DNA of 64,000 bases from Solibaculum intestinale (GTDB lineage: Bacteria > Bacillota > Clostridia > Oscillospirales > Acutalibacteraceae). The notes beneath the pieces are model-generated. The model was not told the DNA's origin. It did no database searches and saw only the letters and a list, made by a program, of their open reading frames with translations. The number at the start of each line of letters is the position of its first letter. Positions within the stretch are counted from its first letter, which is position 1. The translations under genes were made by a program, and so were the position numbers. Below are positions 1 to 13,682 of this stretch, one piece after another. The stretch is taken from contig NZ_JBBMFD010000014.1 of assembly GCF_040096205.1 (NCBI RefSeq), forward strand, positions 4,579-68,578, written 5' to 3'.

Positions 1-2051
1 AGACCCATTCGAAAAAAGACATCTATCTGGATGCGGTAGGGCAGTCGTTTCGCAAGCTGTCCCCCCGGATTCAGATTAAAAACCCGGTGATGCTGGTAGT
101 TTACATCGGCGCCATCTTCATCACCGCCCTGTATTTCCTCACCTTTGCCGGTATCAAGGACGGCGAAGGCTGGTATGTACTCACCATTGCATTTATCCTC
201 TGGTTTACCGTCCTGTTTGCAAACTTCGCGGAAGCCATCGCTGAAGGCCGCGGCCGGGCGCAGGCGGATACCCTGCGCCGGTCCCGCCGGGACTGCAAGG
301 CCAAAAAGCTCAAGGAGCCCCGGCCCGACGCGGACTATACCGAGGTGCTCTCCAATGAATTGAAACCCGGCGACGTGGTTCTGGTAAGCGCCGGCGAACA
401 GGTGCCTATGGACGGCGAGGTCATTGAAGGCGTCGCTTCGGTGGACGAAAGCGCCATCACCGGCGAGTCGGCCCCGGTCATCCGTGAGTCTGGCGGCGAC
501 CGCAGCGCGGTTACCGGCGGCACCACGGTAGTGTCCGACTGGCTGGTGGTCAAGGTTACCGCCCAGGCGGGCAACAGCTTCCTGGATAAAATGATCGCCA
601 TGGTGGAGGGGGCCTCCCGCAAAAAAACCCCTAACGAAATTGCCCTGCAGATTTTGCTGGTTACCCTGACCATCATCTTCCTAGCGGTGGCGGCCACCCT
701 GTTGCCCTTCTCCGAGTTTTCAAGCGAGCAGGCCGGGGCCGGCAGCGCCGTTTCCCTGACGAACATTGTTGCTCTCCTTGTCTGCTTAGCGCCCACCACC
801 ATCGGCGCTCTCCTTTCCTCCATCGGCATCGCCGGTATGAGCCGTTTAAACCAGGCGAATGTCCTGGCCATGAGCGGCCGGGCCATCGAAGCGGCGGGCG
901 ATGTGGACGTGCTGCTTTTGGATAAGACCGGCACTATCACCCTGGGAAACCGCCAGGCCAGCGAGTTTCTGCCCGTTTCCGGTGTTACCGAAAGGGATCT
1001 GGCCGATGCGGCCCAGCTTTCCTCCCTGGCGGACGAAACGGCGGAAGGCCGCAGCATCGTGGTTTTGGCCAAGGAACGCTTTGGCATCCGCGGCCGGGAC
1101 CTGTCGGATAAACACGCGAAATTCATTGAGTTCTCTGCCAAAACCCGCATGAGCGGCGTGGACTTGGATGGAGAAGAGATCCGCAAAGGCGCCGCCGACG
1201 CGGTAAAGGCCTACGTAGAGCAAAAGGGCGGAGAATACCCCCAGGAGTGCCAGACCATGGTCGAGCAGGTGGCAAATGCCGGCGGCACGCCCTTGGTTGT
1301 CGCCAGAAACGGCAAGGTGCTGGGCGTGGTGTACCTCAAGGACATCGTCAAAAACGGCGTCAAGGAAAAGTTTGAGGACCTGCGCAAGATCGGCATCAAG
1401 ACCATCATGATCACCGGTGACAATCCCATGACCGCCGCCGCCATCGCCGCGGAAGCGGGTGTGGACGACTTTATGGCGGAGGCCACTCCGGAAACCAAGC
1501 TCGAGCTCATCCGCCAGTACCAAAAGGAAGGCCATCTGGTCGCTATGACTGGCGACGGCACCAACGACGCCCCGGCCCTGGCACAGGCGGACGTGGCGGT
1601 CGCTATGAACTCCGGTACCCAGGCGGCCAAGGAAGCGGGCAACATGGTGGACCTGGATTCCAGCCCCACCAAACTGATTGAAGTGGTGCGCATCGGCAAA
1701 CAGCTTCTGATGACCCGCGGCGCCTTGACCACCTTCTCCATCGCCAACGACGTGGCCAAGTACTTCGCCATCATTCCGGTGCTCTTCGCGGGAATTTTCC
1801 CCCAGCTTGCGGCTCTCAACTTTATGCATCTGACCAGCGCCACCTCCGCCATTCTGTCAGCCATCATCTATAATGCCCTGATTATCGTGGCGCTCATTCC
1901 CTTGTCTCTCAAGGGCGTCAAATACCGGGAAGTTTCCGCCGGCAAGATGCTCAAACGCAATGTGCTCATCTACGGCCTGGGCGGAATCGTCGCTCCCTTT
2001 ATCGCCATCAAACTGATTGATATGATTCTGACCTTCTTCGGCATCGTATAA
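1..2051 (+). CDS. kdpB: Potassium-transporting P-type ATPase subunit KdpB, 5' end outside window
   Basis: The frame is open from nt 3 (translation ...[21 protein letters not shown]...) and matches KdpB throughout: [10 protein letters not shown] phosphorylation motif, [21 protein letters not shown] hinge. The track Met at 87 is internal. Confidence 0.95.
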
Positions 2052-2066
2052 AGGAGGAAAACAAGC

Positions 2067-2723
2067 ATGGAGAAAACACAAGTGCCCGCCAAGAAGGAAA
2101 AAATGCGGGTTTTAAAACCGGCGCTCATCTGCGTGCTGGTGCTTACCCTGCTGTGCGGCGTGATTTACCCGCTCCTGGTGACCGGCATTTCCCAGCTGTT
2201 CTTCCACGACCAGGCAAACGGCAGCATCATCACCGTGACTCTGAAAAAGGATTTGACTGTCACCACCACCGACGAAGAAACCGGAGAGGAATCCACCCAG
2301 GTCTATCCGGCCGGGGAAACGGTGGCCATCGGTTCGGCCTACATGGGGCAGGAATTCACGAGCCCTCAGTACCTGATCGGCCGGCCTACTCCCGGCGCGC
2401 CCACCAACCTTTCCCCGGAAAGCGAGGAGCATGCCCAGATGGTGCAGGAGCGCATCGACTTCTTTCATGAGCTCGATCCTTCCAACACCGCCGACATCCC
2501 CATGGACCTGCTGACCGTTTCCGGCAGCGGCGTGGACCCGCAGATTTCTCCCGAAGCGGCCGAATATCAAGTCAGCCGTCTGGCGAGGGAGCGGGGCATG
2601 AGCGAGGAGGATGTGCGCAAGATTATTGAAAAGCATACCTCCGGCCGTTTCCTGTGGATTTTCGGAGAACCGGCGGTCAACGTATTGCTGGTAAATCTGG
2701 AGCTGGACGGATACATTGCGTAA
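2067..2723 (+). CDS. kdpC: Potassium-transporting ATPase subunit KdpC
   Basis: 218-aa single-TM protein immediately after kdpB. RBS AAGGAGG precedes the ATG. Has the KdpC-like N-terminal TM and conserved C-terminal region. Confidence 0.85.
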   Translation: MEKTQVPAKKEKMRVLKPALICVLVLTLLCGVIYPLLVTGISQLFFHDQANGSIITVTLKKDLTVTTTDEETGEESTQVYPAGETVAIGSAYMGQEFTSPQYLIGRPTPGAPTNLSPESEEHAQMVQERIDFFHELDPSNTADIPMDLLTVSGSGVDPQISPEAAEYQVSRLARERGMSEEDVRKIIEKHTSGRFLWIFGEPAVNVLLVNLELDGYIA

Positions 2724-2849
2724 CCGTTCTACAGTACCCGCCGCCTTTGTACTTTTTAGAAAGCGCAAGGGCGGCTCGTCTATAATCGCAACCGGCCGTG
2801 TTCTTTGCTCGGGCGTTTCGTCCGAAAGAGCGCGCGGCCGTTGGGCAGA

Positions 2850-2890
2850 GCGCTTTGAAAAACGAATTCAAAGCGCGCTTTGCCATTTTT
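2850..2890 (+). terminator. Perfect 10-bp inverted repeat (GCGCTTTGAA-N7-TTCAAAGCGC) followed by a T-run, between kdpC and kdpD
   Basis: Read directly from the sequence. Could be an intrinsic terminator or attenuator separating kdpABC from kdpD, or a protein operator. Confidence 0.4.
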
Positions 2891-2902
2891 ATAAGAGAGG
2901 GG

Positions 2903-5563
2903 ATGACCGTTGTGTCCGAAGACGAACTGCGCCCGGATCCCGATGCGCTGCTCGAACAGGTCAGTACAGAAGAACCAAAACAGAACAAAGGCAAGCTGAA
3001 AATCTTTTTTGGCTACTGCGCCGGTGTTGGCAAGACCTACGCCATGCTCCAGGAAGCCCACGATTTGCTCGACAGCGGAGTGGACGTGGTGGTAGGCTAC
3101 ATCGAGCCCCATACCCGGGCGGAAACCATGCGCCTGGTGGAAGGGCTGCCGATTCTCCCAGTCAAGGAAATCCCCTATAAAAATATTATTCTGCGGGAGT
3201 TCGACCTGGACGCAGCCTTAAAAAGGCATCCCCAGGTGATTCTGGTAGACGAACTGGCCCATTCCAACGCCGTCGGCGTACGCAACAAAAAGCGTTATCA
3301 GGACGTGGAGGAGCTTCTCAACGCGGGCATCGACGTATACACCACTGTCAACGTCCAGCACATTGAAAGCCTCAACGACGTCATTCAGGAGATCACCAAT
3401 GTCTCGGTGCGGGAAACGGTGCCCGATTCCATCTTCGACGATGCCCAGAAGGTGGAACTCATCGACATCGAGCCGGAAGAGCTCTTAAAGCGGTTTCAAA
3501 GCGGGAAGATCTACCGGCCAGACCGGGCCGCCACCGCCATGCACCACTTCTTTACTCGCCAAAACCTGGACACCCTGCGGGAAATCTCCATGCGCCGCAC
3601 CGCCGACCGCATCTACCGGGACAGCGCGGCCAAAAACGGTCCCGCTGCCCGCACGGGAAGCACGAAGCTTTTGGTCCTCATCGGCATGTCCCCCTCCTCG
3701 GCGAAAAACATCCGAGTAGCCGCCCGGATGGCGGAGTCCTTCCATGCGCCCTGGACGGCGGTGTTCGTGGAAACCCCCGAGACCGAAAACGCATCTCTGG
3801 AGGAAAAGAAAATCCTGCGCGATCATATGACCCTGGCCGAACAGCTTGGTGCCCAGGTGGTCACCCTCTACGGGGAGGACGTGGTGCTCGTGGCCGCCCG
3901 GTACGCTCAGCTAAACGGCATTACCAACATCGTTATTGGCAAAAGCCGGCGAAAACGGGGAATTCTTCACTGCTTCGAGGAGGATTTCGAGGACCGGCTC
4001 ATCGGGGAACTGAGCGACGTAGAGGTGCACATCATCCCCGACGCCGGCCGCCGGGAAATTCCCTATAAAAAGCCGGGGCATGTGGACGTTAAAAACAGCT
4101 TTCCTTTTTCTGTGGCGGACCTGCTCAAAACCCTTCTGGTTCTGGCGGGAGCCACTGTCGTTTCCATCCTTCTGCGGGGGGCGGATATCGGCGCGCAGAA
4201 CAGCGCCATCGTCTACATTCTTTCCGTGGTGCTTATTTCGCGCTTTACCACCGGGTATCTTTACGGCATCCTCGCATCGGTCATTGGTCTAATCGGTTTC
4301 AACATCATCGACACCTATCCGTATTTTACCTTCGATTTTATGAAGACCGGGTATCCCATCACCTTTGTCATCATGCTCTGCCTGGCGGTAATCACCAGCG
4401 CCCTGACCGTGCGCATCAAAAAACAAGTGCAAAATTCCGCCGCCCGGGAGCAGCGCACCCAGATTTTATACGAAATCAATAAAAAGCTTCTTTCCACCCG
4501 AGGTCTGCGCAACATCGTCAATCTGGTCAACGGCTATATCGTCAAGCTGTTCGGCCGTTCGGCGGTCTTTTATACCATGGACAAGGACGGCCAGCCCGGC
4601 GGCGTACTGCTGGAGGCGGAGGATGAACGCAGTGCCGAAACCCTTCTGAGCGAAGAGGAAAAGGCGGTGGTCCAATGGGTGTTTCTCAACCGCAAGCGGG
4701 CGGGCTGCGGCACCGATACCCTGCAGGGGGCTTACGGGTTTTATACGCCGGTTATGTCCCAGGGCAGCGTGCTGGGTGTGCTGGGCGTTTCCTGTGAAAA
4801 GGGGGCATTGAGTCCGGACAGCCGGGCCTTTCTGCGGATGATCATTTCCCAGGTGGCTATGGCCCTGGAGCGCCAGCGCCTGTCCGACGAGCAGCGGCAG
4901 GTAAGCGTGGATTCCGAGAAGGAGAAAATGCGCAACAATCTTCTGCGCGCCATCTCCCATGATCTGCGCCAGCCCTTGACTGAGATTCACAAGGCTAGCG
5001 AAACCCTGGTCAGAGAGGATCGAACGGACGCAAAACTGGCGGGCTACATCGAGAAGGAATCGGCATGGTTAATGCGCATGGTGGAAAACTTGCTTTCGGT
5101 CACCCGGCTGCGGGAGGGAAGCCTACCTCTCAAAAAGGTTCCCGAACGTGTCAAGGCGGTGGCGGAGGAAGCGGCCGCCCGGATGAAAAACCGATATCCG
5201 GACCGTATTTTTTCCGTTTATGCAGCGGATCCCTCTCTCCTTGTTTTCATGGACGCCACGCTGATTGAGCAGGTGCTGATGAACCTGATGGAAAACGCCG
5301 TGCAGCATTCCCCGGCGGATACCGCCGTCGATATCCGCATCCAAAAGCGCATCCGCACCGTGCTCATTGAGGTGTGCGACCATGGCAGCGGAATCGCCAA
5401 GGAGAAGGTGGCCCATCTGTTTGACGCCGACGCCACCGCCGCTTTAAACGGCGGCATCGGCCTTTCTCTGTGCAAATCCATCGTCAACGCCCACGGCGGT
5501 GAGATGCGCGCCAAAAACAACAAGGATGGGGGCGCAGTCATCGGTTTTACCCTGCCGCTTTGA
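2903..5563 (+). CDS. kdpD: Osmosensitive K+ channel sensor histidine kinase KdpD
   Basis: KdpD N-terminal P-loop domain (GYCAGVGKTYAML), USP-like region, 4 TM helices, GAF, HisKA (AISHDLRQPL) and HATPase. Start chosen at ATG 2903 or GTG 2912 after GAGAGGGG; the track start at 2798 has no RBS. Confidence 0.9.
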   Translation: MTVVSEDELRPDPDALLEQVSTEEPKQNKGKLKIFFGYCAGVGKTYAMLQEAHDLLDSGVDVVVGYIEPHTRAETMRLVEGLPILPVKEIPYKNIILREFDLDAALKRHPQVILVDELAHSNAVGVRNKKRYQDVEELLNAGIDVYTTVNVQHIESLNDVIQEITNVSVRETVPDSIFDDAQKVELIDIEPEELLKRFQSGKIYRPDRAATAMHHFFTRQNLDTLREISMRRTADRIYRDSAAKNGPAARTGSTKLLVLIGMSPSSAKNIRVAARMAESFHAPWTAVFVETPETENASLEEKKILRDHMTLAEQLGAQVVTLYGEDVVLVAARYAQLNGITNIVIGKSRRKRGILHCFEEDFEDRLIGELSDVEVHIIPDAGRREIPYKKPGHVDVKNSFPFSVADLLKTLLVLAGATVVSILLRGADIGAQNSAIVYILSVVLISRFTTGYLYGILASVIGLIGFNIIDTYPYFTFDFMKTGYPITFVIMLCLAVITSALTVRIKKQVQNSAAREQRTQILYEINKKLLSTRGLRNIVNLVNGYIVKLFGRSAVFYTMDKDGQPGGVLLEAEDERSAETLLSEEEKAVVQWVFLNRKRAGCGTDTLQGAYGFYTPVMSQGSVLGVLGVSCEKGALSPDSRAFLRMIISQVAMALERQRLSDEQRQVSVDSEKEKMRNNLLRAISHDLRQPLTEIHKASETLVREDRTDAKLAGYIEKESAWLMRMVENLLSVTRLREGSLPLKKVPERVKAVAEEAAARMKNRYPDRIFSVYAADPSLLVFMDATLIEQVLMNLMENAVQHSPADTAVDIRIQKRIRTVLIEVCDHGSGIAKEKVAHLFDADATAALNGGIGLSLCKSIVNAHGGEMRAKNNKDGGAVIGFTLPL

Positions 5564-5621
5564 GAAAATCCTTGCAAATTTGCGTTTTTTTCTGAAGATT
5601 TGCGGCAAAGCTTAACTGTGC

Positions 5622-5651
5622 TTGACAGAGGGACAGGAAAAAGGCTATACT
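5622..5651 (+). promoter_or_regulatory. Sigma-A-type promoter (TTGACA-18-TATACT) upstream of the cobalamin riboswitch
   Basis: Hexamers read in sequence. Positioned about 30 nt before the riboswitch aptamer. Confidence 0.5.
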
Positions 5652-5679
5652 AAAGCCAAACCTAATATCGTACGTCTGC

Positions 5680-5948
5680 CGGTTGCAGCTTGCTGCAAGA
5701 ATAGGGAATGCGGTGCAAAGCCGCAGCAGCCCCCGCTACTGTAAGAAGGGACGAAGCGCTTTTTCAAATGCCACTGGGAAACTGGGAAGGCAAAGGCGCA
5801 AAAGGACGATCTTCGAGCCAGGAGACCTGCCGCAGACGAGTCGCACAGATTTTCGGTGGGAAAATACATGGCGTTTGAGAGCGGCTGCCTTTGAAAGGCA
5901 GCGTCTTGCGTTGCGTAAAAGGACCGGATTTCGGTCCTTTTTTCTTTT
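5680..5948 (+). ncRNA. Cobalamin (B12) riboswitch with terminator-type expression platform
   Basis: Conserved core AATAGGGAATGCGGTGCAAAGCCGCAGCAGCCCCCGCTACTGTAAGAAGGGA, the GCCACTG motif, and a perfect B12 box AGCCAGGAGACCTGCC (5816-5831). Followed by a stem-loop AAAGGACCGGATTTCGGTCCTTTTTTCTTTT (5917-5948). Confidence 0.85.
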
Positions 5949-6004
5949 GCCGGAAAGAAGGCGGCGCGGTAGGATGGAAAATTAGAAGCGGAGGGATTCG
6001 TAAA

Positions 6005-7489
6005 ATGAAACATCTGAGTAAAACCATGCTGGGCGTTCTGCTGGCGCTGACGCTGCTTTTGTCGGCGGCGCTGCCCGCGGCGGCCCAGGAACCGGTGAAA
6101 GCCGCGGCTGTAAGCGACCAGGAACTCCACGACGCCCTTTTCGGCGCGCTCGAGTGGGCGAAGCTGGGGGAAGATACTTTATTAAATGACGCTTTTCTGG
6201 AGACGGCGGGCATCGGCGGGGAATGGCTGGTGCTGGCTGCCAGCCGGGCCGGGCTGAAAGAGGACTATTCCCGGTACCTGACTGCCCTGACCGCCTATGT
6301 GCAGCAAAAATACAAGGAAAACGGCAGTGCTAACGCCTTTCGCAATACCACCGACTGGCACCGCATTACCTTTGGCGTCCTTGCCTGCGGAGGGGACCCC
6401 ACCCATGTTGGGGAGGACCAAAACGGCAACCCCATCAACCTGATTGCCGACGGCGTCTATAACCGCAAAGATGAGAACGGACAGGGGGTCCTTCCCAACC
6501 AAGGCGTCAACGCTTTGATTTATGGCCTGCTGGCGCTGGATACTATGCGTTATGAGGTGCCCTTAGACGCGCTTTACGACCGGGACGACATCATTCAGGG
6601 CATCCTGGAGAACCAGACCACCACCGGCGGATTCGCGTGGTTTGGAGATAGCTCCGACCCGGACATGACCGGCATGGCCATCCAGGCCCTGGCCCCGTAC
6701 TATACCTCCGACAAGGTGTATTCCTACACCTCCGCCGTCCAGAAGGATCCGGACGGCGCTCCCGCCGCCTGCCAAAAGACGGTGCGCCAGGTGGTGGACG
6801 AAGCCATCGAAAGCCTCGTGCCCCAGCAGCTGGCCACCGGCGATCTGTATTCCCCCTGGTCCGTAGGCCCGGAAGCCACCGTTCAGCTGGTCATCGGTCT
6901 GTGCGCGCTGGGAATTGACCCCGCCCAGGACAGCCGCTTTGTCACCGAAGACGGCAAGACCCTTATCGACGGCATTCTGCGTCACCGCAACGAAGATGGC
7001 AGCTTCGGCAGCGGCGCCATGTCCACCGAGCAGGTGGCCTACACCCTTGCCGCCTATACCCGCCTGCGTGCAAACCAGCGCGACCTCTTTGATTTCCGGG
7101 CGGAGACCGACGCCACCCGGTTTGTCCTGGAGGCGAACGGCGAGACCATCGAAGTCCCGGTGACTGCCGGGCAGACGGAATATGCCGTCACCCTGCCGGC
7201 GGGGACTGCCTCGGTCAAAGTGGCGAACCTTCCAATGGGCCCCTATGATACGGCGGACGTTGCCGTGGGCCAGGAGCTGGCCGTTGCAGACGGCGGCAAG
7301 CTGACCGTAACGGTCACCGGCCGCGCCGGCGCCGTCACCGAATATCTTCTCACCGTCAGCCTGATCACGGCGAACAGCGACGCGGAGCCCTCTCCGCCCA
7401 CCGGCGTGCCGGCAGCTGCTTCGGCGGTGGTGCTGCTGGGCCTAAGCGCGGCGGCCGTGATCGCCCTGCGCAGAAAAGCAAACGCATAA
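6005..7489 (+). CDS. Secreted, putatively sortase-anchored surface protein with an alpha/alpha-toroid (prenyltransferase / transcobalamin alpha-domain-like) fold; candidate B12-binding protein
   Basis: First gene after the B12 riboswitch. Signal peptide (…LPAAAQE). Repeated Gly/aromatic motifs (GGFAWFGDSSDPDMTGMAIQALAP, DGSFGSGAMSTEQVAYTLAAY). C-terminal SPPTG + hydrophobic stretch + RRKANA sorting signal. RBS GGAGGG precedes the ATG. Confidence 0.6.
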   Translation: MKHLSKTMLGVLLALTLLLSAALPAAAQEPVKAAAVSDQELHDALFGALEWAKLGEDTLLNDAFLETAGIGGEWLVLAASRAGLKEDYSRYLTALTAYVQQKYKENGSANAFRNTTDWHRITFGVLACGGDPTHVGEDQNGNPINLIADGVYNRKDENGQGVLPNQGVNALIYGLLALDTMRYEVPLDALYDRDDIIQGILENQTTTGGFAWFGDSSDPDMTGMAIQALAPYYTSDKVYSYTSAVQKDPDGAPAACQKTVRQVVDEAIESLVPQQLATGDLYSPWSVGPEATVQLVIGLCALGIDPAQDSRFVTEDGKTLIDGILRHRNEDGSFGSGAMSTEQVAYTLAAYTRLRANQRDLFDFRAETDATRFVLEANGETIEVPVTAGQTEYAVTLPAGTASVKVANLPMGPYDTADVAVGQELAVADGGKLTVTVTGRAGAVTEYLLTVSLITANSDAEPSPPTGVPAAASAVVLLGLSAAAVIALRRKANA

Positions 7490-7513
7490 AGAGTCTCGAA
7501 CAACCGATTAAAA

Positions 7514-7554
7514 AACCGGGTGTTTCCGTTTGAATCAAGCGGAAATACCCGGTT
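7514..7554 (+). other. Long intercistronic hairpin (15-bp stem, 14/15 paired) without a U-tract
   Basis: AACCGGGTGTTTCCG...CGGAAATACCCGGTT between the first and second genes of the B12 operon. Possible processing or stability element, or partial terminator. Confidence 0.5.
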
Positions 7555-7578
7555 GCTGAATGCACAGGGAGGATTCGT

Positions 7579-8364
7579 ATGAAGAACCAAACCAAACGCT
7601 GGGCGTGGCTGCTGCTCTTGCTGGCGGCGGCGGTGCTGTTCTCCGGCTGCAAGGTGGAGTTTCCTCAGGACCGGCCGGCAGAGAGCAGTTCTCTTTCCAC
7701 CCAGTCCCTGCCTCAAAGCGCAATCAGCACTTTACCCGAGGAATCCTCTTTGCCGCAAGCGCCTTCCCAGCCGGACGGCGACTCCACGTCCTCCCAGCCG
7801 GCAGACGGGGGCGAAAGCGACCCGGCTTCGTCAAAGCCGTCCTCCCCGCAAAGCAAGGCCCCCCAGCAGCCCGCGGACGGTTCGTCCGCCCAAAGCCAAG
7901 GCAGTTCCTCTCAGGGCGGGGGAGAGGCGTCCGTCCCCTCGCCCGGTGTGCCTCAAACCCTCACCTGTACCCTTTCCATCCGGTGCGACAACATTCTCAA
8001 GCATATGGATCTGCTCGACCCTGCCCGCAGAGAATTCGTCCCTGCCTCCGGCGTTATTTACGCCGCCCGCCAGGTGACCTTCCAGGAAGGCGAGAGCGTC
8101 TACGACGTGCTCAAAAGGGAGGCGGACGCGGCGGGCATCCCACTTACCAAAAGCGGCAACGCCCTGTTTAAGACCATCTACATCACCTCCATCCAGAACC
8201 TGCGGGAAAAAGACTGCGGCGAAACCGGCGGCTGGATGTACCGGGTCAACGGCCAAACGCCGGGAATGAGCTGCGCGGCCTACCAGCTTAAGGACGGCGA
8301 CCGGGTGGAATGGGACTATACCGTGGTCAAGGGGGACGTGGGGGTCGTGGAGGGAAGCGAATGA
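7579..8364 (+). CDS. DUF4430-domain lipoprotein (transcobalamin beta-domain-like, putative cobalamin-binding)
   Basis: Lipobox LFSGC. About 100-aa S/P/Q-rich linker. C-terminal domain with the DUF4430 hallmarks (…SVYDVLKREADAAGIPL…GETGGWMYRVNGQTPGMSCAAYQLKDGDRVEWDY). RBS GGGAGGA. Confidence 0.8.
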   Translation: MKNQTKRWAWLLLLLAAAVLFSGCKVEFPQDRPAESSSLSTQSLPQSAISTLPEESSLPQAPSQPDGDSTSSQPADGGESDPASSKPSSPQSKAPQQPADGSSAQSQGSSSQGGGEASVPSPGVPQTLTCTLSIRCDNILKHMDLLDPARREFVPASGVIYAARQVTFQEGESVYDVLKREADAAGIPLTKSGNALFKTIYITSIQNLREKDCGETGGWMYRVNGQTPGMSCAAYQLKDGDRVEWDYTVVKGDVGVVEGSE

Positions 8365-9251
8365 CGAACAGCGGCTTTTCCTCCTACCATCCGGCGGTGA
8401 ATTTTTTGTTTTTCGCCGCGGTGCTCCTATTCTCCATGTTCTTTCTCCACCCAGTTTTTCTGGGCATTTCCTTTGTCTGCTCCCTCGCCTATGCCGTGCG
8501 GTTAAACGGCGTGCGAGCGATAAAATTCAGCCTTTTGGGGTTACTGCCCATGATGCTCCTGGTGGCTCTCATCAACCCCGCCTTCAATCACGACGGGGTG
8601 ACCGTTCTCGTGTATGTAAACGACAATCCCATCACCCTGGAAGCGGTCTGCTACGGCCTGGCGGCGGCGGTGATGTTCGCTTCGGTGCTTTTGTGGTTCT
8701 CCTGCTACAACGCCGTGATGACTTCCGATAAGTTCCTTTCCCTGTTCGGCCGGGTGATCCCGGCCTTGTCCATGCTGCTGTCCATGTGCCTGCGGTTTGT
8801 GCCCCGCTTCAAGGCCCAGGCGAGGGTCATCGCTCAGGCCCAGCGCTGTGTGGGACGGGACCCGGGGGCAGGGAGCCTTCTGCGCCGGGCGAAAAACGGC
8901 ATGCAGATTCTCTCCATTCTTACCACCTGGGCGCTGGAAAACGCCGTCGACACGGCCGATTCCATGAAGGCCCGGGGTTATGGGCTCAAAGGGCGGACCA
9001 GCTTCTCCCTTTACCGGTTTGACCGGAGGGACACGGCGGTTTTTCTCGGCCTGCTTAGTTTGCTTGTGCTGGTGTTCGCCGGGGCGGCCTTGGGGGAAAA
9101 CAGCATGCAGTATTTCCCCCGCCTCGTTCAAAAAGAGGTGACTGGCCTGAGCGCGGTTATTTATGCGGGATACGCCCTTTTGTGCCTGACCCCGCTGATT
9201 CTGGATGGAAAGGAGGCGCTAAAATGGCGGCGGTTGCTCTCGAAAACCTGA
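8361..9251 (+). CDS. ecfT: ECF transporter transmembrane (T) component EcfT/CbiQ
   Basis: Polytopic membrane protein of the CbiQ family. Start ATG 8361 after GGAGGGAAG, overlapping the upstream stop by 4 nt (ATGA). Confidence 0.85.
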   Translation: MTNSGFSSYHPAVNFLFFAAVLLFSMFFLHPVFLGISFVCSLAYAVRLNGVRAIKFSLLGLLPMMLLVALINPAFNHDGVTVLVYVNDNPITLEAVCYGLAAAVMFASVLLWFSCYNAVMTSDKFLSLFGRVIPALSMLLSMCLRFVPRFKAQARVIAQAQRCVGRDPGAGSLLRRAKNGMQILSILTTWALENAVDTADSMKARGYGLKGRTSFSLYRFDRRDTAVFLGLLSLLVLVFAGAALGENSMQYFPRLVQKEVTGLSAVIYAGYALLCLTPLILDGKEALKWRRLLSKT

Positions 9252-10909
9252 CCTTTTCTTACCCAAACCGAAAAACGCCCGCCCTTCGCGGCGTAACTCT
9301 TTCGGTCAAGGAAGGGGAGCTTGCGGTCTTATGCGGCAAGTCCGGCTGCGGGAAAACCACGCTTCTTCGGCAGTGCAAACCCGCCTTGGCCCCCCATGGG
9401 GAGAAAAGCGGGGAAATTCGCCTGTTCGGCCAGCCCATCGCCGCCCTTTCCCCCCGGGACCAGGCGGCGAAAATCGGTTTTGTCCTGCAAAACCCGGACA
9501 ACCAGCTGGTGACCGATAAGGTCTGGCACGAGCTGGCCTTCGGCCTGGAAAGCCTGGGAGTGGAAAACGCCGCCATCCGCCTGAGGGTGGCGGAGATGGC
9601 CAGCTTCTTCGGCATCGGCCCCTGGTTTCATAAGAACGTGGCTGACCTGTCCGGCGGGCAAAAACAGCTGTTGAACCTGGCCTCCATCATGGCCATGCAG
9701 CCTCGCCTTCTCCTGCTCGACGAGCCCACCTCCCAGCTTGACCCCATCGCCGCGGCGGAGTTTTTGCAGACGGTGCGAAAAATCAACCGGGAGCTGGGAG
9801 TGACGGTTCTTTTGACCGAGCACCGGCTGGAGGAAGCCGTCCCCATGGCCGACCGGGTGGTGGTTCTGGACGAGGGCCGTATCCTGGTGGACGCGCCGCC
9901 CAAGGAAGCGGGGGAGAGGCTCAAGGCCCTTGACCACCACATGTTCGCGTCTATGCCCGCCCCCATGCAGATTTACGCTGCCTTGGACGCGCCGCCCCCA
10001 TGCCCGCTGACTGTGCGGGAAGGGCGGCAGTTTTTGTCTAACCTGTTTCGGGAGAACCCGCCTAAGGTCAAGGCGCTGCCGGACAGCCCTGCGCCGAAGG
10101 GGAAAGGCGAGCCCGCTCTGGAACTGAAAGACGTGTGGTTTCGCTACGAGAAAACCGGCCCCGACGTCATCAAGGACCTGTCCCTGACGGTGGACAAGGG
10201 GAGCATTTTCGCCGTGATGGGGCAGAACGGGGCGGGAAAGACCACCCTGCTCACCCTGCTCACCGGTCAAAACCGCCCTCTGCGCGGCAAGGTGCGCATT
10301 CGGGGAAAGGAGATCGGAAAATATAAGGCCGGGGAGCTTTTCGACCGATGTCTTGCCATGCTGCCGCAGAACCCCCAGGCCCTCTTTGTCAAAAAGACCA
10401 TCCGGGAGGACCTGATGGAGATGCTGCAGGGGTGCGGCCGCCAGTCGGCGGACGCCCGGCTGATAGAGACGGCGAAGCTGGCCCAAATTGAGGACCTGCT
10501 CGACGCCCATCCCTACGACGTCAGCGGCGGCGAGCAGCAGCGGGCGGCTTTGGCCAAGGCATTGCTCTTAGAGCCGCGGATTCTGCTGCTGGACGAACCC
10601 ACCAAAGGACTCGACAACCACTATAAGGAGATCCTCAGCGGTATCTTAACCCGCCTTTGCGGCCAGGGGGTCACAGTGCTGCTCGTTTCCCACGACATTG
10701 AGTTTTGCGCCAAGTACGCCCACCGGTGCGCCCTTTTCTTCGACGGGTCCATCGTCTCCCAGGGAGAGCCCAAGGCCTTCTTCTCCGGCAACCGGTTCTA
10801 TACCACCGCCGCCAACCGGATGGCCCGCCATCTGTTTGCGGACGCGGTGACCAACGAGGAGGTGATTGCCCTATGCCGCGAAAACGGCGTTTCCCCGTCA
10901 AGACCTTGA
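9224..10909 (+). CDS. ecfA: ECF transporter fused double ATPase (EcfA-EcfA')
   Basis: Two complete ABC cassettes: Walker A GKSGCGKTT and GQNGAGKTT, signatures LSGGQKQ and VSGGEQQ, Walker B LLLDEPTS and LLLDEPTKG. Start at MAAVALENL after GGAAAGGAGG. Confidence 0.9.
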   Translation: MAAVALENLTFSYPNRKTPALRGVTLSVKEGELAVLCGKSGCGKTTLLRQCKPALAPHGEKSGEIRLFGQPIAALSPRDQAAKIGFVLQNPDNQLVTDKVWHELAFGLESLGVENAAIRLRVAEMASFFGIGPWFHKNVADLSGGQKQLLNLASIMAMQPRLLLLDEPTSQLDPIAAAEFLQTVRKINRELGVTVLLTEHRLEEAVPMADRVVVLDEGRILVDAPPKEAGERLKALDHHMFASMPAPMQIYAALDAPPPCPLTVREGRQFLSNLFRENPPKVKALPDSPAPKGKGEPALELKDVWFRYEKTGPDVIKDLSLTVDKGSIFAVMGQNGAGKTTLLTLLTGQNRPLRGKVRIRGKEIGKYKAGELFDRCLAMLPQNPQALFVKKTIREDLMEMLQGCGRQSADARLIETAKLAQIEDLLDAHPYDVSGGEQQRAALAKALLLEPRILLLDEPTKGLDNHYKEILSGILTRLCGQGVTVLLVSHDIEFCAKYAHRCALFFDGSIVSQGEPKAFFSGNRFYTTAANRMARHLFADAVTNEEVIALCRENGVSPSRP

Positions 10910-11592
10910 TTTCTCTATTCCTGGTTCTGGTGCTGGTTCCCGCCACCATCCTGCTTGGCGTCTTCGTCCTGCACGACCGGGCCTATTACTTTATCAGCCT
11001 TCTGCTGATTGTCTACACCATGGTTCCCTTTTTCCTTCTTTTTGAGAAGCGAAAGCCCCAGGCCAGGGAGCTGGTGGTGATCGCCGTGCTCTGCGCCATC
11101 GCGGTGGCGGGCCGGGCGGCCTTCTTCATGCTTCCGCAAGTCAAGCCTATGATGGCCGTCGTCATTCTTGCGGGGGTGGCGCTTGGGCCCCAGGCGGGAT
11201 TTCTGACCGGCGCGGTCTCCGCCTTTGTGTCCAACTTTTTCTTCGGCCAAGGCCCCTGGACTCCGTGGCAAATGTTCTGCTTTGGCATCGTGGGCTTTTT
11301 GGCGGGCCTCCTCTTCCGGGAAGGAAGGCTCAAACCCGGGCGCATCTCCCTATGCGTCTTCGGCGGGCTTTGCACCCTTGTGATTTACGGCGGCATCATG
11401 AACCCGGCTTCCGTGCTTTTGGGCTCATCCAAGCTCACCTGGGGGGCGGTGCTCACCTCTTACCTGACCGGCCTGCCCATGGACCTGATCCATGCGGCTT
11501 CCACCGTGGTGTTTTTGCTGGTCCTTTCGAAGCCCATGCTGGAGAAGCTTTCGCGGATTCAGATCAAATACGGCCTTTTGCGGGATTCTTAA
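10873..11592 (+). CDS. ECF transporter substrate-specific (S) component, candidate cobalamin-specific (CbrT-like)
   Basis: 239-aa protein with 6-7 predicted TM helices, last gene of the B12-riboswitch operon. Overlaps the ecfA end by 37 nt. Family assignment rests on context and topology only. Confidence 0.6.
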   Translation: MPRKRRFPVKTLISLFLVLVLVPATILLGVFVLHDRAYYFISLLLIVYTMVPFFLLFEKRKPQARELVVIAVLCAIAVAGRAAFFMLPQVKPMMAVVILAGVALGPQAGFLTGAVSAFVSNFFFGQGPWTPWQMFCFGIVGFLAGLLFREGRLKPGRISLCVFGGLCTLVIYGGIMNPASVLLGSSKLTWGAVLTSYLTGLPMDLIHAASTVVFLLVLSKPMLEKLSRIQIKYGLLRDS

Positions 11593-11593
11593 A

Positions 11594-11620
11594 AAAGCGG
11601 ACGTTTCGTCCGCTTTTTCC
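11594..11620 (+). terminator. Intrinsic terminator (GCGGACG-TTTC-CGTCCGC + TTTTT)
   Basis: Hairpin plus U-tract directly after the S-component stop codon. Confidence 0.7.
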
Positions 11621-11638
11621 TTTGTTTGGGCCCTTCGG

Positions 11639-11666
11639 TTGAATTTCAGAAAGAATCTGGTATAAT
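11639..11666 (+). promoter_or_regulatory. Promoter for metG (TTGAAT-16-TGgTATAAT, extended -10)
   Basis: Hexamers read in sequence, about 45 nt upstream of the metG ATG. Confidence 0.5.
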
Positions 11667-11711
11667 AATTCTTTATAGACGTCATATCCAAAACTGCGAG
11701 GAGGAACCATT

Positions 11712-13682
11712 ATGAGCAAAACCTTTTACATCACGACGCCAATCTACTACCCGTCCGACAAGCTGCACATCGGGCACGCCTATTGCACCGTTGCGGCCGA
11801 TACCATGGCGCGGTATAAGCGAATGCAGGGATATGACGTGATGTTTTTGACCGGCACCGACGAGCACGGCCAGAAAATTGAGGACAAGGCGAAGGCCAAA
11901 GGGGTCACGCCCAAGCAGTATGTGGACGACATTGTCGACGGCATCCTCAAGCTGTGGAAACTGCTCAACATCTCCAACGACAAGTTCATCCGCACCACCG
12001 ACGGTTATCACGAGGAAGCGGTCAAGAAGATTTTCAAGCAGCTCTACGACCAGGGGGACATCTACAAAGGGCATTACGAAGGGTGGTACTGCACTCCCTG
12101 CGAATCCTTCTGGACCGAAACCCAGTTAAAGGACGGCAAGTGTCCCGACTGCGGCCGGGAGGTCAAGCGGTCGGAGGAGGAAGCGTATTTCTTTAAGCTC
12201 TCCGCCTATGCCGACAAGCTGGTGGAGTATTATAAGGACCATCCGGATTTTGTCGAGCCCCAGTCCAGGCTCAACGAAATGATCAACAACTTCATTAAGC
12301 CCGGCCTGGAGGACTTGTGCGTTTCCCGCACCTCTTTCACCTGGGGCATTCCCGTGGACTTTGACCCGAAGCACGTGGTTTACGTGTGGATCGACGCGTT
12401 GAGCAACTACATCACCGCTCTGGGCTACGGCTCCGGCGACGATTCTCTCTATCGGAAATACTGGCCCGCCGACGTGCACCTGGTAGGCAAGGAAATCGTA
12501 CGGTTTCACACCATCATCTGGCCCGCCATGCTTATGGCGCTCAACCTTCCGCTGCCTAAGAAGGTGTTCGGCCACGGCTGGCTGGTCATCGGCGGGGGCA
12601 AGATGAGCAAGTCCAAGGGGAATGTGGTGGACCCTGTGGTCCTGTGCGAGCGGTACGGGGTGGACGCCATCCGCTATTTCCTTTTGCGGGAAATCCCCTT
12701 CGGGTCGGACGGCAACTTTACCAACGAAGCCCTGGTCAGCCGCATCAATTCCGACTTGGCCAACGACCTTGGAAACCTGGTATCCCGCACCCAGGCGATG
12801 ATCGAAAAGTATTTTGCCGGGACGCTTCCCACAGAGCGGGAGGCCCAGCCCATTGACGAGGACCTGATTTCCCTTGCCAAGGCCACCAAGGAAAACGCGG
12901 AGAAATATCTGGACAACATGCAGTTCTCCAGTGCCCTTGCGGAAATATGGAAGCTGATTTCGAGAACCAATAAGTACATCGACGAGACCATGCCCTGGGC
13001 CTTGGCCAAGGACGAGGCGAAAACGCCCCGCCTGGCTACGGTGCTCTATAATCTGGCGGAATGCATCCGCATCAGCGCCATCCTCATTGCCCCGTTTATG
13101 CCTTCCACCACGCCGGTGATTTTGGAAGGCCTGGGCCTGTCGGGGGCGGACGCCAAGTGGCAGGAGACAGCCGTATGGGGCTTGCTGCCGGAGGATTTGA
13201 CGGTGAAGAAGGGTGCCGCCCTTTTCCCCCGCATTGATATGAAAAAAGAGCTTGCGGAATTGGAAAAGCTCACGGGCCTGGACGCCGCCGGCCACACGGT
13301 GGAAAAGAAAGCGGAGAAGGCCCCGAAACAGGAAGAAAAGCCCCAAGGGATCGCCACGCTCATCGGCATTGAGGACTTTGCGAAGGTCGAGCTGCGCGCG
13401 GCGAAAATTAAGCTTTGCGAACCGGTCAAAAAGTCCGACAAGCTTCTGCGTCTGGAGCTCGACGACGGGGAAGGCATCCGGCAGGTGGTTTCCGGCATCG
13501 CCAAATGGTACCGGCCCGATGATCTGGTGGGCAAGACCGTCATCCTGGTGGCGAACTTAAAACCCGCCAAGCTGCGCGGCGTGGAAAGCTGCGGTATGAT
13601 TTTGGCGGCAGATGCGGCTGAGGACGATGTACGGGTGGTCTTTTTGGACGATGCGGTGCCCGCAGGCGCCAAAATCCGGTAA
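11712..13682 (+). CDS. metG: Methionyl-tRNA synthetase with C-terminal tRNA-binding (EMAP-like) domain
   Basis: HIGH motif (LHIGHAYC), zinc knuckle (CTPCESFWTE…CPDCGREV), KMSKS (GKMSKSKGN), C-terminal OB-fold. Confidence 0.95.
   Translation: MSKTFYITTPIYYPSDKLHIGHAYCTVAADTMARYKRMQGYDVMFLTGTDEHGQKIEDKAKAKGVTPKQYVDDIVDGILKLWKLLNISNDKFIRTTDGYHEEAVKKIFKQLYDQGDIYKGHYEGWYCTPCESFWTETQLKDGKCPDCGREVKRSEEEAYFFKLSAYADKLVEYYKDHPDFVEPQSRLNEMINNFIKPGLEDLCVSRTSFTWGIPVDFDPKHVVYVWIDALSNYITALGYGSGDDSLYRKYWPADVHLVGKEIVRFHTIIWPAMLMALNLPLPKKVFGHGWLVIGGGKMSKSKGNVVDPVVLCERYGVDAIRYFLLREIPFGSDGNFTNEALVSRINSDLANDLGNLVSRTQAMIEKYFAGTLPTEREAQPIDEDLISLAKATKENAEKYLDNMQFSSALAEIWKLISRTNKYIDETMPWALAKDEAKTPRLATVLYNLAECIRISAILIAPFMPSTTPVILEGLGLSGADAKWQETAVWGLLPEDLTVKKGAALFPRIDMKKELAELEKLTGLDAAGHTVEKKAEKAPKQEEKPQGIATLIGIEDFAKVELRAAKIKLCEPVKKSDKLLRLELDDGEGIRQVVSGIAKWYRPDDLVGKTVILVANLKPAKLRGVESCGMILAADAAEDDVRVVFLDDAVPAGAKIR

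What the first reader, a model, noticed from the sequence alone, without database searches (positions are those of the whole stretch)
5622..11620. Cobalamin-riboswitch operon encoding a split transcobalamin-like surface capture module fused to an ECF importer
A single promoter and a B12 riboswitch precede five genes. (i) A secreted alpha/alpha-toroid protein with a C-terminal SPPTG sortase signal. (ii) A lipoprotein whose globular part is a DUF4430 domain, the bacterial homologue of the beta-domain of transcobalamin/intrinsic factor. (iii-v) EcfT, a fused EcfAA' ATPase and an S component. Eukaryotic B12 carriers have an alpha6/alpha6 barrel plus a beta domain in one polypeptide. Here the two halves appear as separate, differently anchored cell-surface proteins (cell wall versus membrane) upstream of the transporter. 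This suggests a Gram-positive B12-scavenging relay (wall-anchored binder, then lipoprotein, then ECF-S). To my knowledge this has not been experimentally characterised as a system.
Basis: partly seen in the sequence, partly recalled or inferred. Interest (0 to 1): 0.8.

Follow-up and report, generated by a model that had tools for sequence, protein, structure and literature searches.

The report
B12-switched vitamin B12 capture-and-import operon
This is a five-gene operon, switched off by vitamin B12 through a riboswitch, that very probably lets a gut Clostridia-type bacterium capture B12 at its surface with two proteins resembling the two halves of the human B12 carrier and import it through an ECF transporter; the design was predicted in 2007, is widespread in Firmicutes, and has not been shown biochemically to bind B12.

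Summary

- **Regulation:** a promoter, a full-length cobalamin riboswitch (Rfam RF00174, 126 bits) and a terminator hairpin precede the genes.
- **Genes:** five translationally coupled genes follow.
  - A secreted alpha/alpha-toroid protein with an SPPTG sortase signal.
  - A lipoprotein with a DUF4430 domain.
  - EcfT, a fused EcfAA', and an S component.
- **S component:** its only significant solved relative is CbrT, the proven B12 S component.
- **DUF4430 domain:** its predicted fold is specifically like the beta domain of haptocorrin, intrinsic factor and transcobalamin.
- **Toroid:** it resembles the transcobalamin alpha domain only at fold level and scores slightly closer to class II terpene cyclases.
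- **Conservation:** the same gene order occurs in 65 of 79 related loci, and about 51 carry a B12 riboswitch.

The idea is not new. Burroughs et al. (2007) predicted such operons, and a five-gene Lactobacillus sakei operon described with the same five parts was knocked out in 2019 and linked to heme. This locus uses a rarer anchoring: a sortase signal on the toroid plus a 100-residue tether on the lipoprotein. It is a new member of a known but biochemically untested kind. Interest is moderate.

The parts
5622..5651 (+). Sigma-70-type promoter-like site (TTGACA, 18 nt spacer, TATACT)
   Evidence: Consensus scan gives 11 of 12 matches, the best site in 5400-11900. Function is inferred.
5662..5848 (+). 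Cobalamin riboswitch aptamer (Rfam RF00174)
   Evidence: cmscan 126 bits against gathering 31.5, E 3e-31, full model 1-189, B12-box GCCACUG aligned.
5917..5947 (+). Expression platform: intrinsic terminator hairpin (11 bp stem, 3 nt loop) plus U tract, 58 nt before the gene 1 start codon
   Evidence: Terminator scan. The hairpin appears in both the MFE and the centroid fold of 5820-5950. OFF-switch logic is inferred from established riboswitch behaviour.
6005..7489 (+). Gene 1 (494 aa), a secreted toroid protein. Signal peptide at about residues 1-27, (alpha/alpha)6 toroid at about 38-355, beta-sandwich at 372-453, and a cell-wall sorting signal (SPPTG at 463-467, nt 7391-7405, then a hydrophobic helix and RRKANA).
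7579..8364 (+). Gene 2 (261 aa), a lipoprotein. Lipobox LFSGC at residues 20-24 (nt 7636-7650), a 100-residue Ser/Pro/Gln-rich tether at residues 25-124, and a DUF4430 (SLBB) domain like the transcobalamin beta domain at residues 125-261 (nt 7951-8361).
8361..9251 (+). Gene 3 (296 aa), the EcfT (CbiQ-family) transmembrane coupling subunit. Its start overlaps the gene 2 stop.
   Evidence: PF02361 E 2.1e-9, 37.8 bits against cutoff 25.
9224..10909 (+). Gene 4 (561 aa), fused EcfA-EcfA' with two ABC ATPase domains
   Evidence: PF00005 matched twice, E 2.9e-57. TIGR04520 ECF_ATPase_1 at 332.6 bits against cutoff 315. Walker A motifs at residues 38 and 333.
10873..11592 (+). Gene 5 (239 aa), a CbrT-like ECF S component with an extra N-terminal region of about 57 residues holding two hydrophobic segments
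   Evidence: PF07155 E 1.2e-14 and PF12822 E 1.7e-11. The only significant solved relative is 6fnp_A, CbrT of the L. delbrueckii ECF-CbrT B12 transporter: E 5.6e-11, residues 58-234 aligned to 4-178. Start codon corrected.
11592..11628 (+). Operon-end intrinsic terminator (12 bp stem, 3 nt loop, T-rich tail)
   Evidence: Terminator scan. The next gene, metG, has its own promoter-like site at 11639-11666.

Best explanation
This is a B12-repressed corrinoid scavenging and import operon.

1. **Regulation.** When intracellular cobalamin is high, the aptamer binds it and the downstream hairpin terminates transcription. When cobalamin is low, all five genes are transcribed.
2. **Placement of the two capture proteins.** Gene 1 is exported and probably attached to peptidoglycan by a clostridial (S/P)PxTG-type sortase. 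Gene 2 is lipid-anchored to the membrane and holds its domain out on a disordered tether of about 100 residues.
3. **Capture.** The toroid and the transcobalamin-beta-like domain most likely close together on one corrinoid molecule. This is how the alpha and beta domains of transcobalamin and intrinsic factor act, here as two separate chains. The pair would raise affinity and capture radius.
4. **Import.** The ligand passes to the CbrT-like S component. The dedicated EcfT-EcfAA' module then drives import with ATP, as shown for ECF-CbrT.

**Shown here:** aptamer class, terminator, protein families and folds, gene order, and its conservation together with B12 riboswitches.

**Inferred:** ligand binding by genes 1 and 2, their joint action, hand-off to the S component, and sortase anchoring.
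For: - **Regulation.** Cobalamin aptamer at 126 bits with a terminator 69 nt downstream.
- **S component.** It is homologous to CbrT of PDB 6FNP. ECF-CbrT transports cobalamin and cobinamide, and hemin does not compete (PMC5997447).
- **Conserved gene order.** 563 relatives were found in species-representative genomes. Of the 79 loci kept, 65 have toroid > SLBB > EcfT and 50 have all five genes in this order.
- **Riboswitch association.** 51 of 79 loci have a same-strand B12 riboswitch upstream, 40 of them at E 1e-6 or better. Of the 28 without one, 14 are cut at the 5' end. Rfam confirmed the riboswitch in 5 of the 8 loci scanned and in L083.
- **Natural fusions.** Chains of the form signal peptide, toroid, TM, TM, SLBB replace the two genes directly upstream of EcfT. 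This is seen in two lineages, one of them in three independent assemblies.
- **Anchor and tether vary together.** All 3 loci with a sortase-type toroid have SLBB tethers of 102-163 residues. The 62 loci with membrane-anchored toroids have a median of 22 residues.
- **Prior prediction.** Burroughs et al. predicted such proteins cooperate in B12 scavenging in operons with CbiO and CbiQ (PMC1796856).
Against: - No binding or transport data exist for any member with B12. A 2026 review calls extracellular cobamide capture in Gram-positive bacteria entirely uncharacterized (PMC13616437).
- The one genetically studied operon described with the same five parts was linked to heme uptake (10.1101/864751).
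- At least six related loci with enough upstream sequence lack a riboswitch: L025, L034, L038, L043, L073 and L080.
- No complex model could be computed. Four loci with membrane-anchored toroids also have long tethers, so the anchor-tether link is suggestive only.
- No sortase gene was seen in the window (pattern scan only).
Confidence: 0.62

Rival explanations
1. Ordered relay. The wall-anchored toroid binds B12 on its own at the outer wall, passes it to the membrane lipoprotein, which passes it to the S component. Each step is a separate single-protein binding event down an affinity gradient, as in the staphylococcal Isd heme relay or the Bacteroides BtuG/H/J/K relay.
For: - The two proteins are anchored at different depths: a sortase signal against a lipobox.
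- Most related loci carry extra upstream toroid and SLBB paralogues of 500-2000 residues, which suggests several capture layers.
- Multi-protein extracellular relays for cobamides are described in Bacteroides (PMC13616437).
Against: - In the solved carriers, B12 is sandwiched between both domains, neither alone forming the full site (PMC1796856).
- Natural single-chain fusions and near-universal adjacency point to a joint unit.
- The 100-residue tether appears exactly where the toroid is wall-anchored. That looks like a device to let the two domains meet rather than stay apart.
- In 62 of 65 loci both proteins are membrane-anchored with tethers of about 22 residues, so there is no depth gradient.
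Confidence: 0.2
2. The operon takes up heme or another tetrapyrrole rather than corrinoids, as reported for the Lactobacillus sakei lsa1836-1840 operon, which is described with the same five parts.
For: Deleting lsa1836-1840 impaired heme accumulation and complementation restored it. Its alpha-like and beta-like proteins were modelled with heme docked between them (10.1101/864751). Some related loci have no B12 riboswitch.
Against: - This operon is under a high-scoring cobalamin aptamer, as are most relatives.
- The S component's only solved relative is CbrT, and hemin did not compete for CbrT transport.
- The L. sakei authors report that their S component lacks the residues they regard as binding cobalamin, so it may be a diverged case.
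- Sequence relatedness between the L. sakei proteins and those here was not tested.
Confidence: 0.06
3. Gene 1 is not a ligand binder but an enzyme or wall-modifying protein of the terpene cyclase / six-hairpin glycosidase type. It might open the wall or strip B12 from host or dietary carriers. Only the DUF4430 lipoprotein would bind B12.
For: - The closest structures are class II terpene cyclases, and many glycoside hydrolases and epimerases score like transcobalamin.
- The family keeps a conserved D-x-D-(I/M/V)-T-(A/G)-M motif (D220 invariant, D218 in 90% or more; residues 218-224 here) that resembles the cyclase DxDDTAM motif.
Against: - The third Asp of the cyclase motif is replaced.
- The protein is secreted, where isoprenoid diphosphate substrates are not expected.
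- There is no significant match to any glycosidase family.
- Tight genetic coupling and fusion with the SLBB domain match the two-domain B12 carriers.
Confidence: 0.08

Closest known systems
ECF-CbrT vitamin B12 transporter of Lactobacillus delbrueckii (Santos et al. 2018, PDB 6FNP)
   Same: The S component is homologous over its full core (E 5.6e-11). Both use an EcfT plus two ATPase domains, and both sit in a B12-related genetic context.
   Different: CbrT shares a general ECF module encoded elsewhere (group II). Here the module is dedicated and in the same operon, with the two ATPases fused. The S component here has about 57 extra N-terminal residues. ECF-CbrT worked in liposomes without any extracellular binder, whereas this operon adds two. 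The L. delbrueckii cluster nrdJ-cbrS-cbrT-pduO includes cbrS, whose nature I could not check.
Bacterial transcobalamin-like SLBB proteins with alpha/alpha toroids in CbiO/CbiQ operons (Burroughs, Balaji, Iyer, Aravind 2007, PMC1796856)
   Same: This is the same kind of system. It has secreted or Gram-positive-anchored SLBB proteins, a toroid either fused or encoded alongside, operons with CbiO-like ATPase and CbiQ-like membrane protein, and a predicted role in scavenging B12.
   Different: That work was purely computational. The passages I read do not mention the riboswitch, the S component, or the anchor and tether variation. This locus is a minimal two-protein version, whereas most relatives have extra paralogues.
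[quoted passage not shown] 2019, bioRxiv 10.1101/864751)
   Same: As described by the authors, it has the same five components: S, fused EcfAA', EcfT, a transcobalamin-beta-like protein and an alpha-like toroid protein, both exported.
   Different: Heme uptake was assigned experimentally and no riboswitch is mentioned. Here a cobalamin riboswitch controls the operon. Sequence relatedness to the proteins here was not tested.
Mammalian transcobalamin, intrinsic factor and haptocorrin
   Same: They combine an (alpha/alpha)6 toroid with a beta-grasp SLBB domain. Gene 2's domain is closest to their beta domains, and gene 1 superposes on their alpha domains.
   Different: There both domains are in one soluble chain, whereas here they are two separately anchored chains. 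The toroid has no sequence-level match to the Cobalamin_bind family. Delivery is to an ECF transporter rather than to an endocytic receptor.
Bacteroides thetaiotaomicron BtuG/BtuH/BtuJ/BtuK surface cobamide relay (review PMC13616437)
   Same: It uses surface-anchored accessory proteins that capture cobamides ahead of the membrane transporter, usually under B12 riboswitch control.
   Different: The folds are unrelated. It is built on an outer membrane with a TonB-dependent BtuB and a BtuFCD importer, in a Gram-negative envelope.
BtuFCD with its substrate-binding protein BtuF
   Same: Both have an extracytoplasmic high-affinity binder feeding an ATP-driven B12 importer.
   Different: BtuF is a class III periplasmic binding protein that docks on a type II ABC importer. 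ECF transporters are generally described as lacking such binders.

Membership tests
Cobalamin riboswitch (Rfam RF00174) | Covariance-model score at or above the curated gathering score over the full aptamer | tested here: met
   126 bits against 31.5, model positions 1-189 of 189, E 3e-31.
Cobalamin riboswitch (Rfam RF00174) | Downstream expression platform able to control the operon | tested here: met
   A terminator hairpin plus U tract at 5917-5947 lies between the aptamer and the start codon. The alternative antiterminator pairing was not worked out.
Cobalamin riboswitch (Rfam RF00174) | Binds a cobalamin and changes gene expression | not testable with these tools
   Needs in-line probing or a reporter assay.
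Group I (dedicated) ECF transporter | EcfT, two ATPase domains and an S component encoded together | tested here: met
   PF02361; PF00005 matched twice in one 561-residue chain, with TIGR04520 above cutoff; PF07155 and PF12822. The genes overlap.
CbrT family of B12-specific S components | Sequence homology to characterised CbrT across the core | tested here: met
   6fnp_A at E 5.6e-11, residues 58-234 aligned to 4-178. No other S component in the PDB passed E 0.1.
CbrT family of B12-specific S components | Transports cobalamin or cobinamide | not testable with these tools
   Inferred from homology and the riboswitch only.
Transcobalamin-like SLBB / DUF4430 (PF14478) | Pfam match above the gathering score | tested here: met
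   61.3 bits against 23.8, E 1.2e-16.
Transcobalamin-like SLBB / DUF4430 (PF14478) | Beta-grasp fold with the clade-specific beta-hairpin after the helix, closest to the beta domains of transcobalamin, intrinsic factor and haptocorrin | tested here: met
   [not shown]
Transcobalamin-like SLBB / DUF4430 (PF14478) | Binds a corrinoid | not testable with these tools
No published test for a bacterial member was found in the searched library.
Transcobalamin / intrinsic factor alpha domain (Pfam Cobalamin_bind PF01122) | Sequence match to PF01122 | tested here: not met
   No hit at E 0.1 or better for gene 1, and none at E 1e-3 or better among 39 family members.
Transcobalamin / intrinsic factor alpha domain (Pfam Cobalamin_bind PF01122) | (alpha/alpha)6 toroid fold that superposes on the carriers | tested here: met
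   [not shown]
Transcobalamin / intrinsic factor alpha domain (Pfam Cobalamin_bind PF01122) | Toroid covalently joined to the beta domain, forming one B12 site | tested here: not met
   They are two genes here. Some relatives are fused, but through a two-helix membrane hairpin and not a soluble linker. Whether a shared site forms was not testable.
Class II terpene cyclase / prenyltransferase toroids | Pfam match above threshold and an intact DxDD catalytic motif | tested here: not met
   PF00432 at 20.5 bits against cutoff 26.5. The motif is DPDMTGMA, with the third Asp replaced. The protein is secreted. It is structurally the nearest group.
Sortase-anchored surface proteins | Tripartite C-terminal sorting signal: a motif, a hydrophobic stretch and a basic tail | tested here: met
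   SPPTG, then VPAAASAVVLLGLSAAAVIAL, then RRKANA. The motif fits the (S/P)PxTG type known for Clostridioides difficile sortase B (my own knowledge). Seven of the 120 homologues have [ST]PxTG signals, counting the two closest relatives and a 55%-coverage fragment identical to gene 1; an eighth was flagged by the motif pattern as SPKTG.
Sortase-anchored surface proteins | A cognate sortase in the genome | tested here: inconclusive
   A pattern scan of the 64 kb window found no convincing sortase. The rest of the genome is not available.
Bacterial lipoproteins | Signal peptide ending in a lipobox with an invariant Cys | tested here: met
   MKNQTKRWAWLLLLLAAAVLFSG-C, with Cys24. A lipobox is present in 34 of 120 homologues.

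The most novel reading that the evidence does not exclude
The wall-anchored toroid and the long-tethered lipoprotein form a ligand-induced, wall-spanning two-chain version of transcobalamin that feeds an ECF transporter. That would make this the first ECF importer shown to depend on extracytoplasmic substrate-binding proteins for B12. It would also be a living example of the split bacterial ancestor from which animals are proposed to have acquired their B12 carriers. The tether length would be tuned to the depth at which the partner is anchored.
Probability: 0.4. Interest if true: 0.6.

Novelty: new member of a known kind. Interest (0 to 1): 0.4.

Why it matters
- **A possible exception to a general rule.** ECF transporters are usually described as working without extracellular binding proteins. 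A large Firmicutes family that couples a CbrT-type ECF importer to two transcobalamin-like surface proteins would be an exception.
- **Corrinoid competition in the gut.** It would add a Gram-positive counterpart to the Bacteroides surface relays. That bears on how Clostridia compete for scarce corrinoids. The closest relatives here are metagenome-assembled Clostridia genomes.
- **Origin of animal B12 carriers.** It also bears on the proposal that these carriers came from Gram-positive bacteria.
- **A tractable test case.** This locus is a compact five-gene unit with one toroid and one SLBB protein, so it is a convenient system for testing B12 binding directly.

Tried and rejected
1. **Gene 1 against PDB sequences.** Single-sequence and profile searches found only squalene and drimenyl cyclases at E about 1e-4, and no B12 carrier.
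2. **Gene 2 against PDB sequences.** The single sequence found nothing. The full-length profile was dominated by the low-complexity tether and gave spurious hits. The trimmed domain profile reached only weak ThiS-type beta-grasp hits. The link to the carriers therefore rests on Pfam and on fold comparison.
3. **Natural fusion or toroid-SLBB pair model.** I considered modelling a natural fusion protein or a concatenated pair to test the clamp.
5. **Rodionov et al. 2009.** This paper, which named CbrT, is not held. Statements about it come through Santos et al. 2018.
6. **Cobalt or nickel uptake (CbiMNQO type).** Rejected: there is no CbiM or CbiN, the S component is CbrT-like, and the control element is a B12 riboswitch.
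7. **Sortase gene and other sortase substrates.** Neither was found in the window.
8. **B12-dependent or B12-biosynthetic genes.** None were found among the 13 flanking or large ORFs scanned. Those identified were kdpBC, kdpD, metG, tatD, glnA, a flotillin-like gene, fusA-like, clpB and dnaK; three had no family match.


Full report
**Observation**

- A sigma-70-type promoter-like site (TTGACA, 18 nt, TATACT) lies at 5622-5651.
- It is followed at 5662-5848 by a full-length match to the Rfam cobalamin riboswitch RF00174: 126 bits against a gathering score of 31.5, E 3e-31. This is the only Rfam match in the 64 kb window.
- A strong hairpin with a U tract at 5917-5947 sits between the aptamer and the first start codon. 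It appears in both the minimum-energy and the centroid folds.
- Five genes on the + strand follow. Each has a GGAGG-type ribosome-binding site, and the last four are joined by overlaps.
- A terminator at 11592-11618 closes the unit.
- The flanks are unrelated housekeeping genes: kdpB, kdpC and kdpD upstream, and metG, tatD and glnA downstream.
- One small correction: the ATG of the last gene is at 10873.

**The transporter genes**

- Gene 3 matches CbiQ/EcfT.
- Gene 4 has two ABC ATPase domains in one chain and passes the curated cutoff of the ECF ATPase model TIGR04520.
- Gene 5 matches the two Pfam ECF S-component families.
- Against all PDB sequences, gene 5 has one significant relative: chain A of 6FNP, at E 5.6e-11 across the whole core. 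That chain is CbrT, the S component of the Lactobacillus delbrueckii ECF-CbrT transporter.
- ECF-CbrT was shown in liposomes to import cobalamin and cobinamide with ATP, and hemin does not compete (PMC5997447).
- Gene 5 carries about 57 extra N-terminal residues with two hydrophobic segments that CbrT lacks.

**Gene 2**

- It starts with a lipoprotein signal (LFSG-C, Cys24).
- It continues with 100 residues made mostly of Ser, Pro and Gln.
- It ends in a DUF4430 domain: PF14478, E 1.2e-16.
- An AlphaFold model of that domain is confident, with pLDDT 91.7.
- Next comes a solved bacterial DUF4430 protein from Ruminococcus gnavus (11.2). The next hits are generic beta-grasp proteins at 8.7 or less.
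- Sequence profiles alone did not reach the carriers in the PDB.

**Gene 1**

- The AlphaFold model (pLDDT 89.4, pTM 0.80) shows four parts:
  - a signal peptide;
  - an alpha/alpha toroid at residues 38-355;
  - a beta-sandwich at residues 372-453;
  - a short disordered stretch and a C-terminal helix.
- The C-terminus reads SPPTG, then a hydrophobic stretch, then RRKANA. This is a complete cell-wall sorting signal.
- The motif is of the (S/P)PxTG type used by clostridial sortases (my own knowledge).
- Foldseek ranks a drimenyl diphosphate synthase first, squalene-hopene cyclase second and human transcobalamin third.
- At sequence level there is no match to the Pfam Cobalamin_bind family. There are weak matches to prenyltransferase and squalene cyclase models.
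- The family keeps a conserved D-x-D-(I/M/V)-T-(A/G)-M motif that recalls the cyclase DxDDTAM motif with its last Asp lost (D220 invariant, D218 in 90% or more).
However, the similarity is at fold level and is not specific.

**Relatives elsewhere**

- A scan of one genome per bacterial species found 563 stretches encoding a relative of gene 1. The best 79 loci were studied.
- They come from many Clostridia and some Bacilli, including Peribacillus, Pseudogracilibacillus, Kurthia and Solibacillus.
- The closest are two metagenome-assembled Clostridia genomes at 94% and 81% identity.
- Gene order toroid > SLBB > EcfT holds in 65 of 79 loci. All five genes are in order in 50, and most of the others are cut by contig ends.
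- Rfam found a cobalamin riboswitch upstream on the same strand in 5 of the 8 loci tested.
- A sequence model built from those aptamers found one in 51 of 79 loci, 40 of them at E 1e-6 or better. Of the 28 loci without one, 14 start within about 400 nt of the locus edge.
- The link is not universal. L025, L034, L038, L043, L073 and L080 have enough upstream sequence and no aptamer at the Rfam threshold.
- Most loci also carry one or more extra upstream toroid proteins (1000-2000 residues) and larger SLBB proteins. The window has the minimal set.

**Evidence that the two surface proteins act together**

1. They are adjacent almost everywhere.
2. In two lineages they are one chain: signal peptide, toroid, membrane helix, membrane helix, SLBB.
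   - This chain sits directly before EcfT, with no separate SLBB gene.
   - One such protein was found in three independent assemblies. The other lies behind an Rfam-confirmed cobalamin riboswitch.
3. Anchoring varies together.
   - Of the 120 homologues retrieved, 94 end in a membrane helix with a charged cytoplasmic tail and 8 were flagged as ending in a sortase-type signal, 7 of them [ST]PxTG.
   - In the 65 syntenic loci, all three with a sortase-type toroid have SLBB tethers of 102-163 residues.
   - The 62 with a membrane-anchored toroid have a median tether of 22 residues. Four of them are exceptions, at 67-134 residues.
   - A long tether exactly where the partner is fixed in the wall is what one would expect if the two domains must meet.

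This evidence is circumstantial. I could not compute a model of the complex.

**Most likely mechanism**

1. Low intracellular cobalamin lets transcription read through the leader (inferred from the aptamer class and the terminator).
2. The toroid is exported and fixed to the wall. The SLBB domain is lipid-anchored on a flexible tether. Both are inferred from the signal sequences.
3. [quoted passage not shown]
4. The ligand passes to the CbrT-like S component. The dedicated EcfT-EcfAA' module imports it with ATP (inferred from homology to ECF-CbrT).

Heme uptake, as reported for the Lactobacillus sakei operon, is unlikely here because of the riboswitch and the CbrT relationship. An enzymatic role for the toroid is unlikely because it is secreted, lacks the full catalytic motif, and is genetically tied to the SLBB domain.

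**Comparison with what is known**

- Burroughs, Balaji, Iyer and Aravind (2007, PMC1796856) defined the transcobalamin-like SLBB clade.
  - They noted its fusion to alpha/alpha toroids in bacteria.
  - They also noted signal peptides, Gram-positive anchors and second paralogues in the same operon.
  - The operons also encode CbiO-like and CbiQ-like proteins.
  - They concluded that these proteins scavenge B12.
- Verplaetse et al. (2019, bioRxiv 10.1101/864751) described lsa1836-1840 of L. sakei.
  - It comprises S, EcfAA', EcfT and separate exported beta-like and alpha-like transcobalamin proteins.
  - They proposed a heterodimer that hands its ligand to the S component.
  - They showed by deletion and complementation that the operon supports heme accumulation.
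- Santos et al. (2018) proved that ECF-CbrT transports B12.
- The architecture and the idea are therefore published.
- I found no paper in the searched library showing B12 binding by a bacterial toroid-SLBB pair.
- A 2026 review states that extracellular cobamide capture in Gram-positive bacteria is entirely uncharacterized (PMC13616437).

**Verdict**

It overstates the toroid's specific kinship with transcobalamin and overstates the novelty.
- The locus is a new member of a known, computationally predicted kind. It is the less common variant with a sortase signal and a long-tethered lipoprotein.
- Interest is moderate. The value lies in a compact, testable example of a widespread system whose B12 binding has never been shown.

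Noticed in passing
window 7514-7554: There is a 15-bp inverted repeat (AACCGGGTGTTTCCG ... CGGAAATACCCGGTT, one G-U pair, 11-nt loop) in the 89-nt gap between gene 1 and gene 2, with no T run after it. It could be an mRNA stability or processing element, or a weak attenuator that sets the ratio of toroid to downstream proteins.
   Followed up: no
window 10873-11043: The S component has about 57 N-terminal residues with two hydrophobic segments that are absent from the solved CbrT (182 residues). Relatives in other loci align from near residue 1 of this protein, so the extension appears to be conserved in the operon-encoded form.
   Followed up: partly
window 6656-6679: The toroid family keeps DPDMTGMA (D220 and M224 invariant; D218 and T222 in 90% or more of 39 sequences). 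This resembles the DxDDTAM acid motif of class II terpene cyclases with the third Asp replaced. It may have been reused as part of a ligand site.
   Followed up: partly
L035 3401-8004, and many other loci such as L011, L020, L028 and L052: Most related operons start with extra surface proteins ahead of the core pair. These are toroid proteins of 1000-2000 residues and lipoproteins of 500-700 residues that end in an SLBB domain. In L035 the first gene after the riboswitch is a large repeat-rich lipoprotein with no match to my toroid or SLBB profiles. This suggests multi-layer capture machines of which the window holds the minimal form.
   Followed up: partly
L007 4965-5148 and 5286-5435; also L004 and L010: Some relatives have two cobalamin aptamers in tandem upstream of the operon. 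In L007 both pass the Rfam threshold, at 115 and 45 bits.
   Followed up: no
L048 4990-5142 (minus strand): One locus has the riboswitch on the opposite strand, facing a divergently transcribed 1608-residue SLBB-containing protein. The core operon on the other strand shows no aptamer of its own.
   Followed up: no
L025, L034, L038, L043, L073, L080: These related loci, most with the complete five-gene core (L073 shows no S-component match), have ample upstream sequence but no cobalamin riboswitch at the Rfam threshold. They may be regulated differently or may have a different ligand, which could connect to the heme report in L. sakei.
   Followed up: partly
L080-L082 gene at 7001-8803 (L082: 5605-7407); L083 gene at 1414-3249: These are natural single-chain fusions of the toroid and the SLBB domain, joined by a two-helix membrane hairpin that keeps both domains outside the cell. 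I did not see this topology mentioned in the passages of the papers I read.
   Followed up: yes
[not shown]
   Followed up: no
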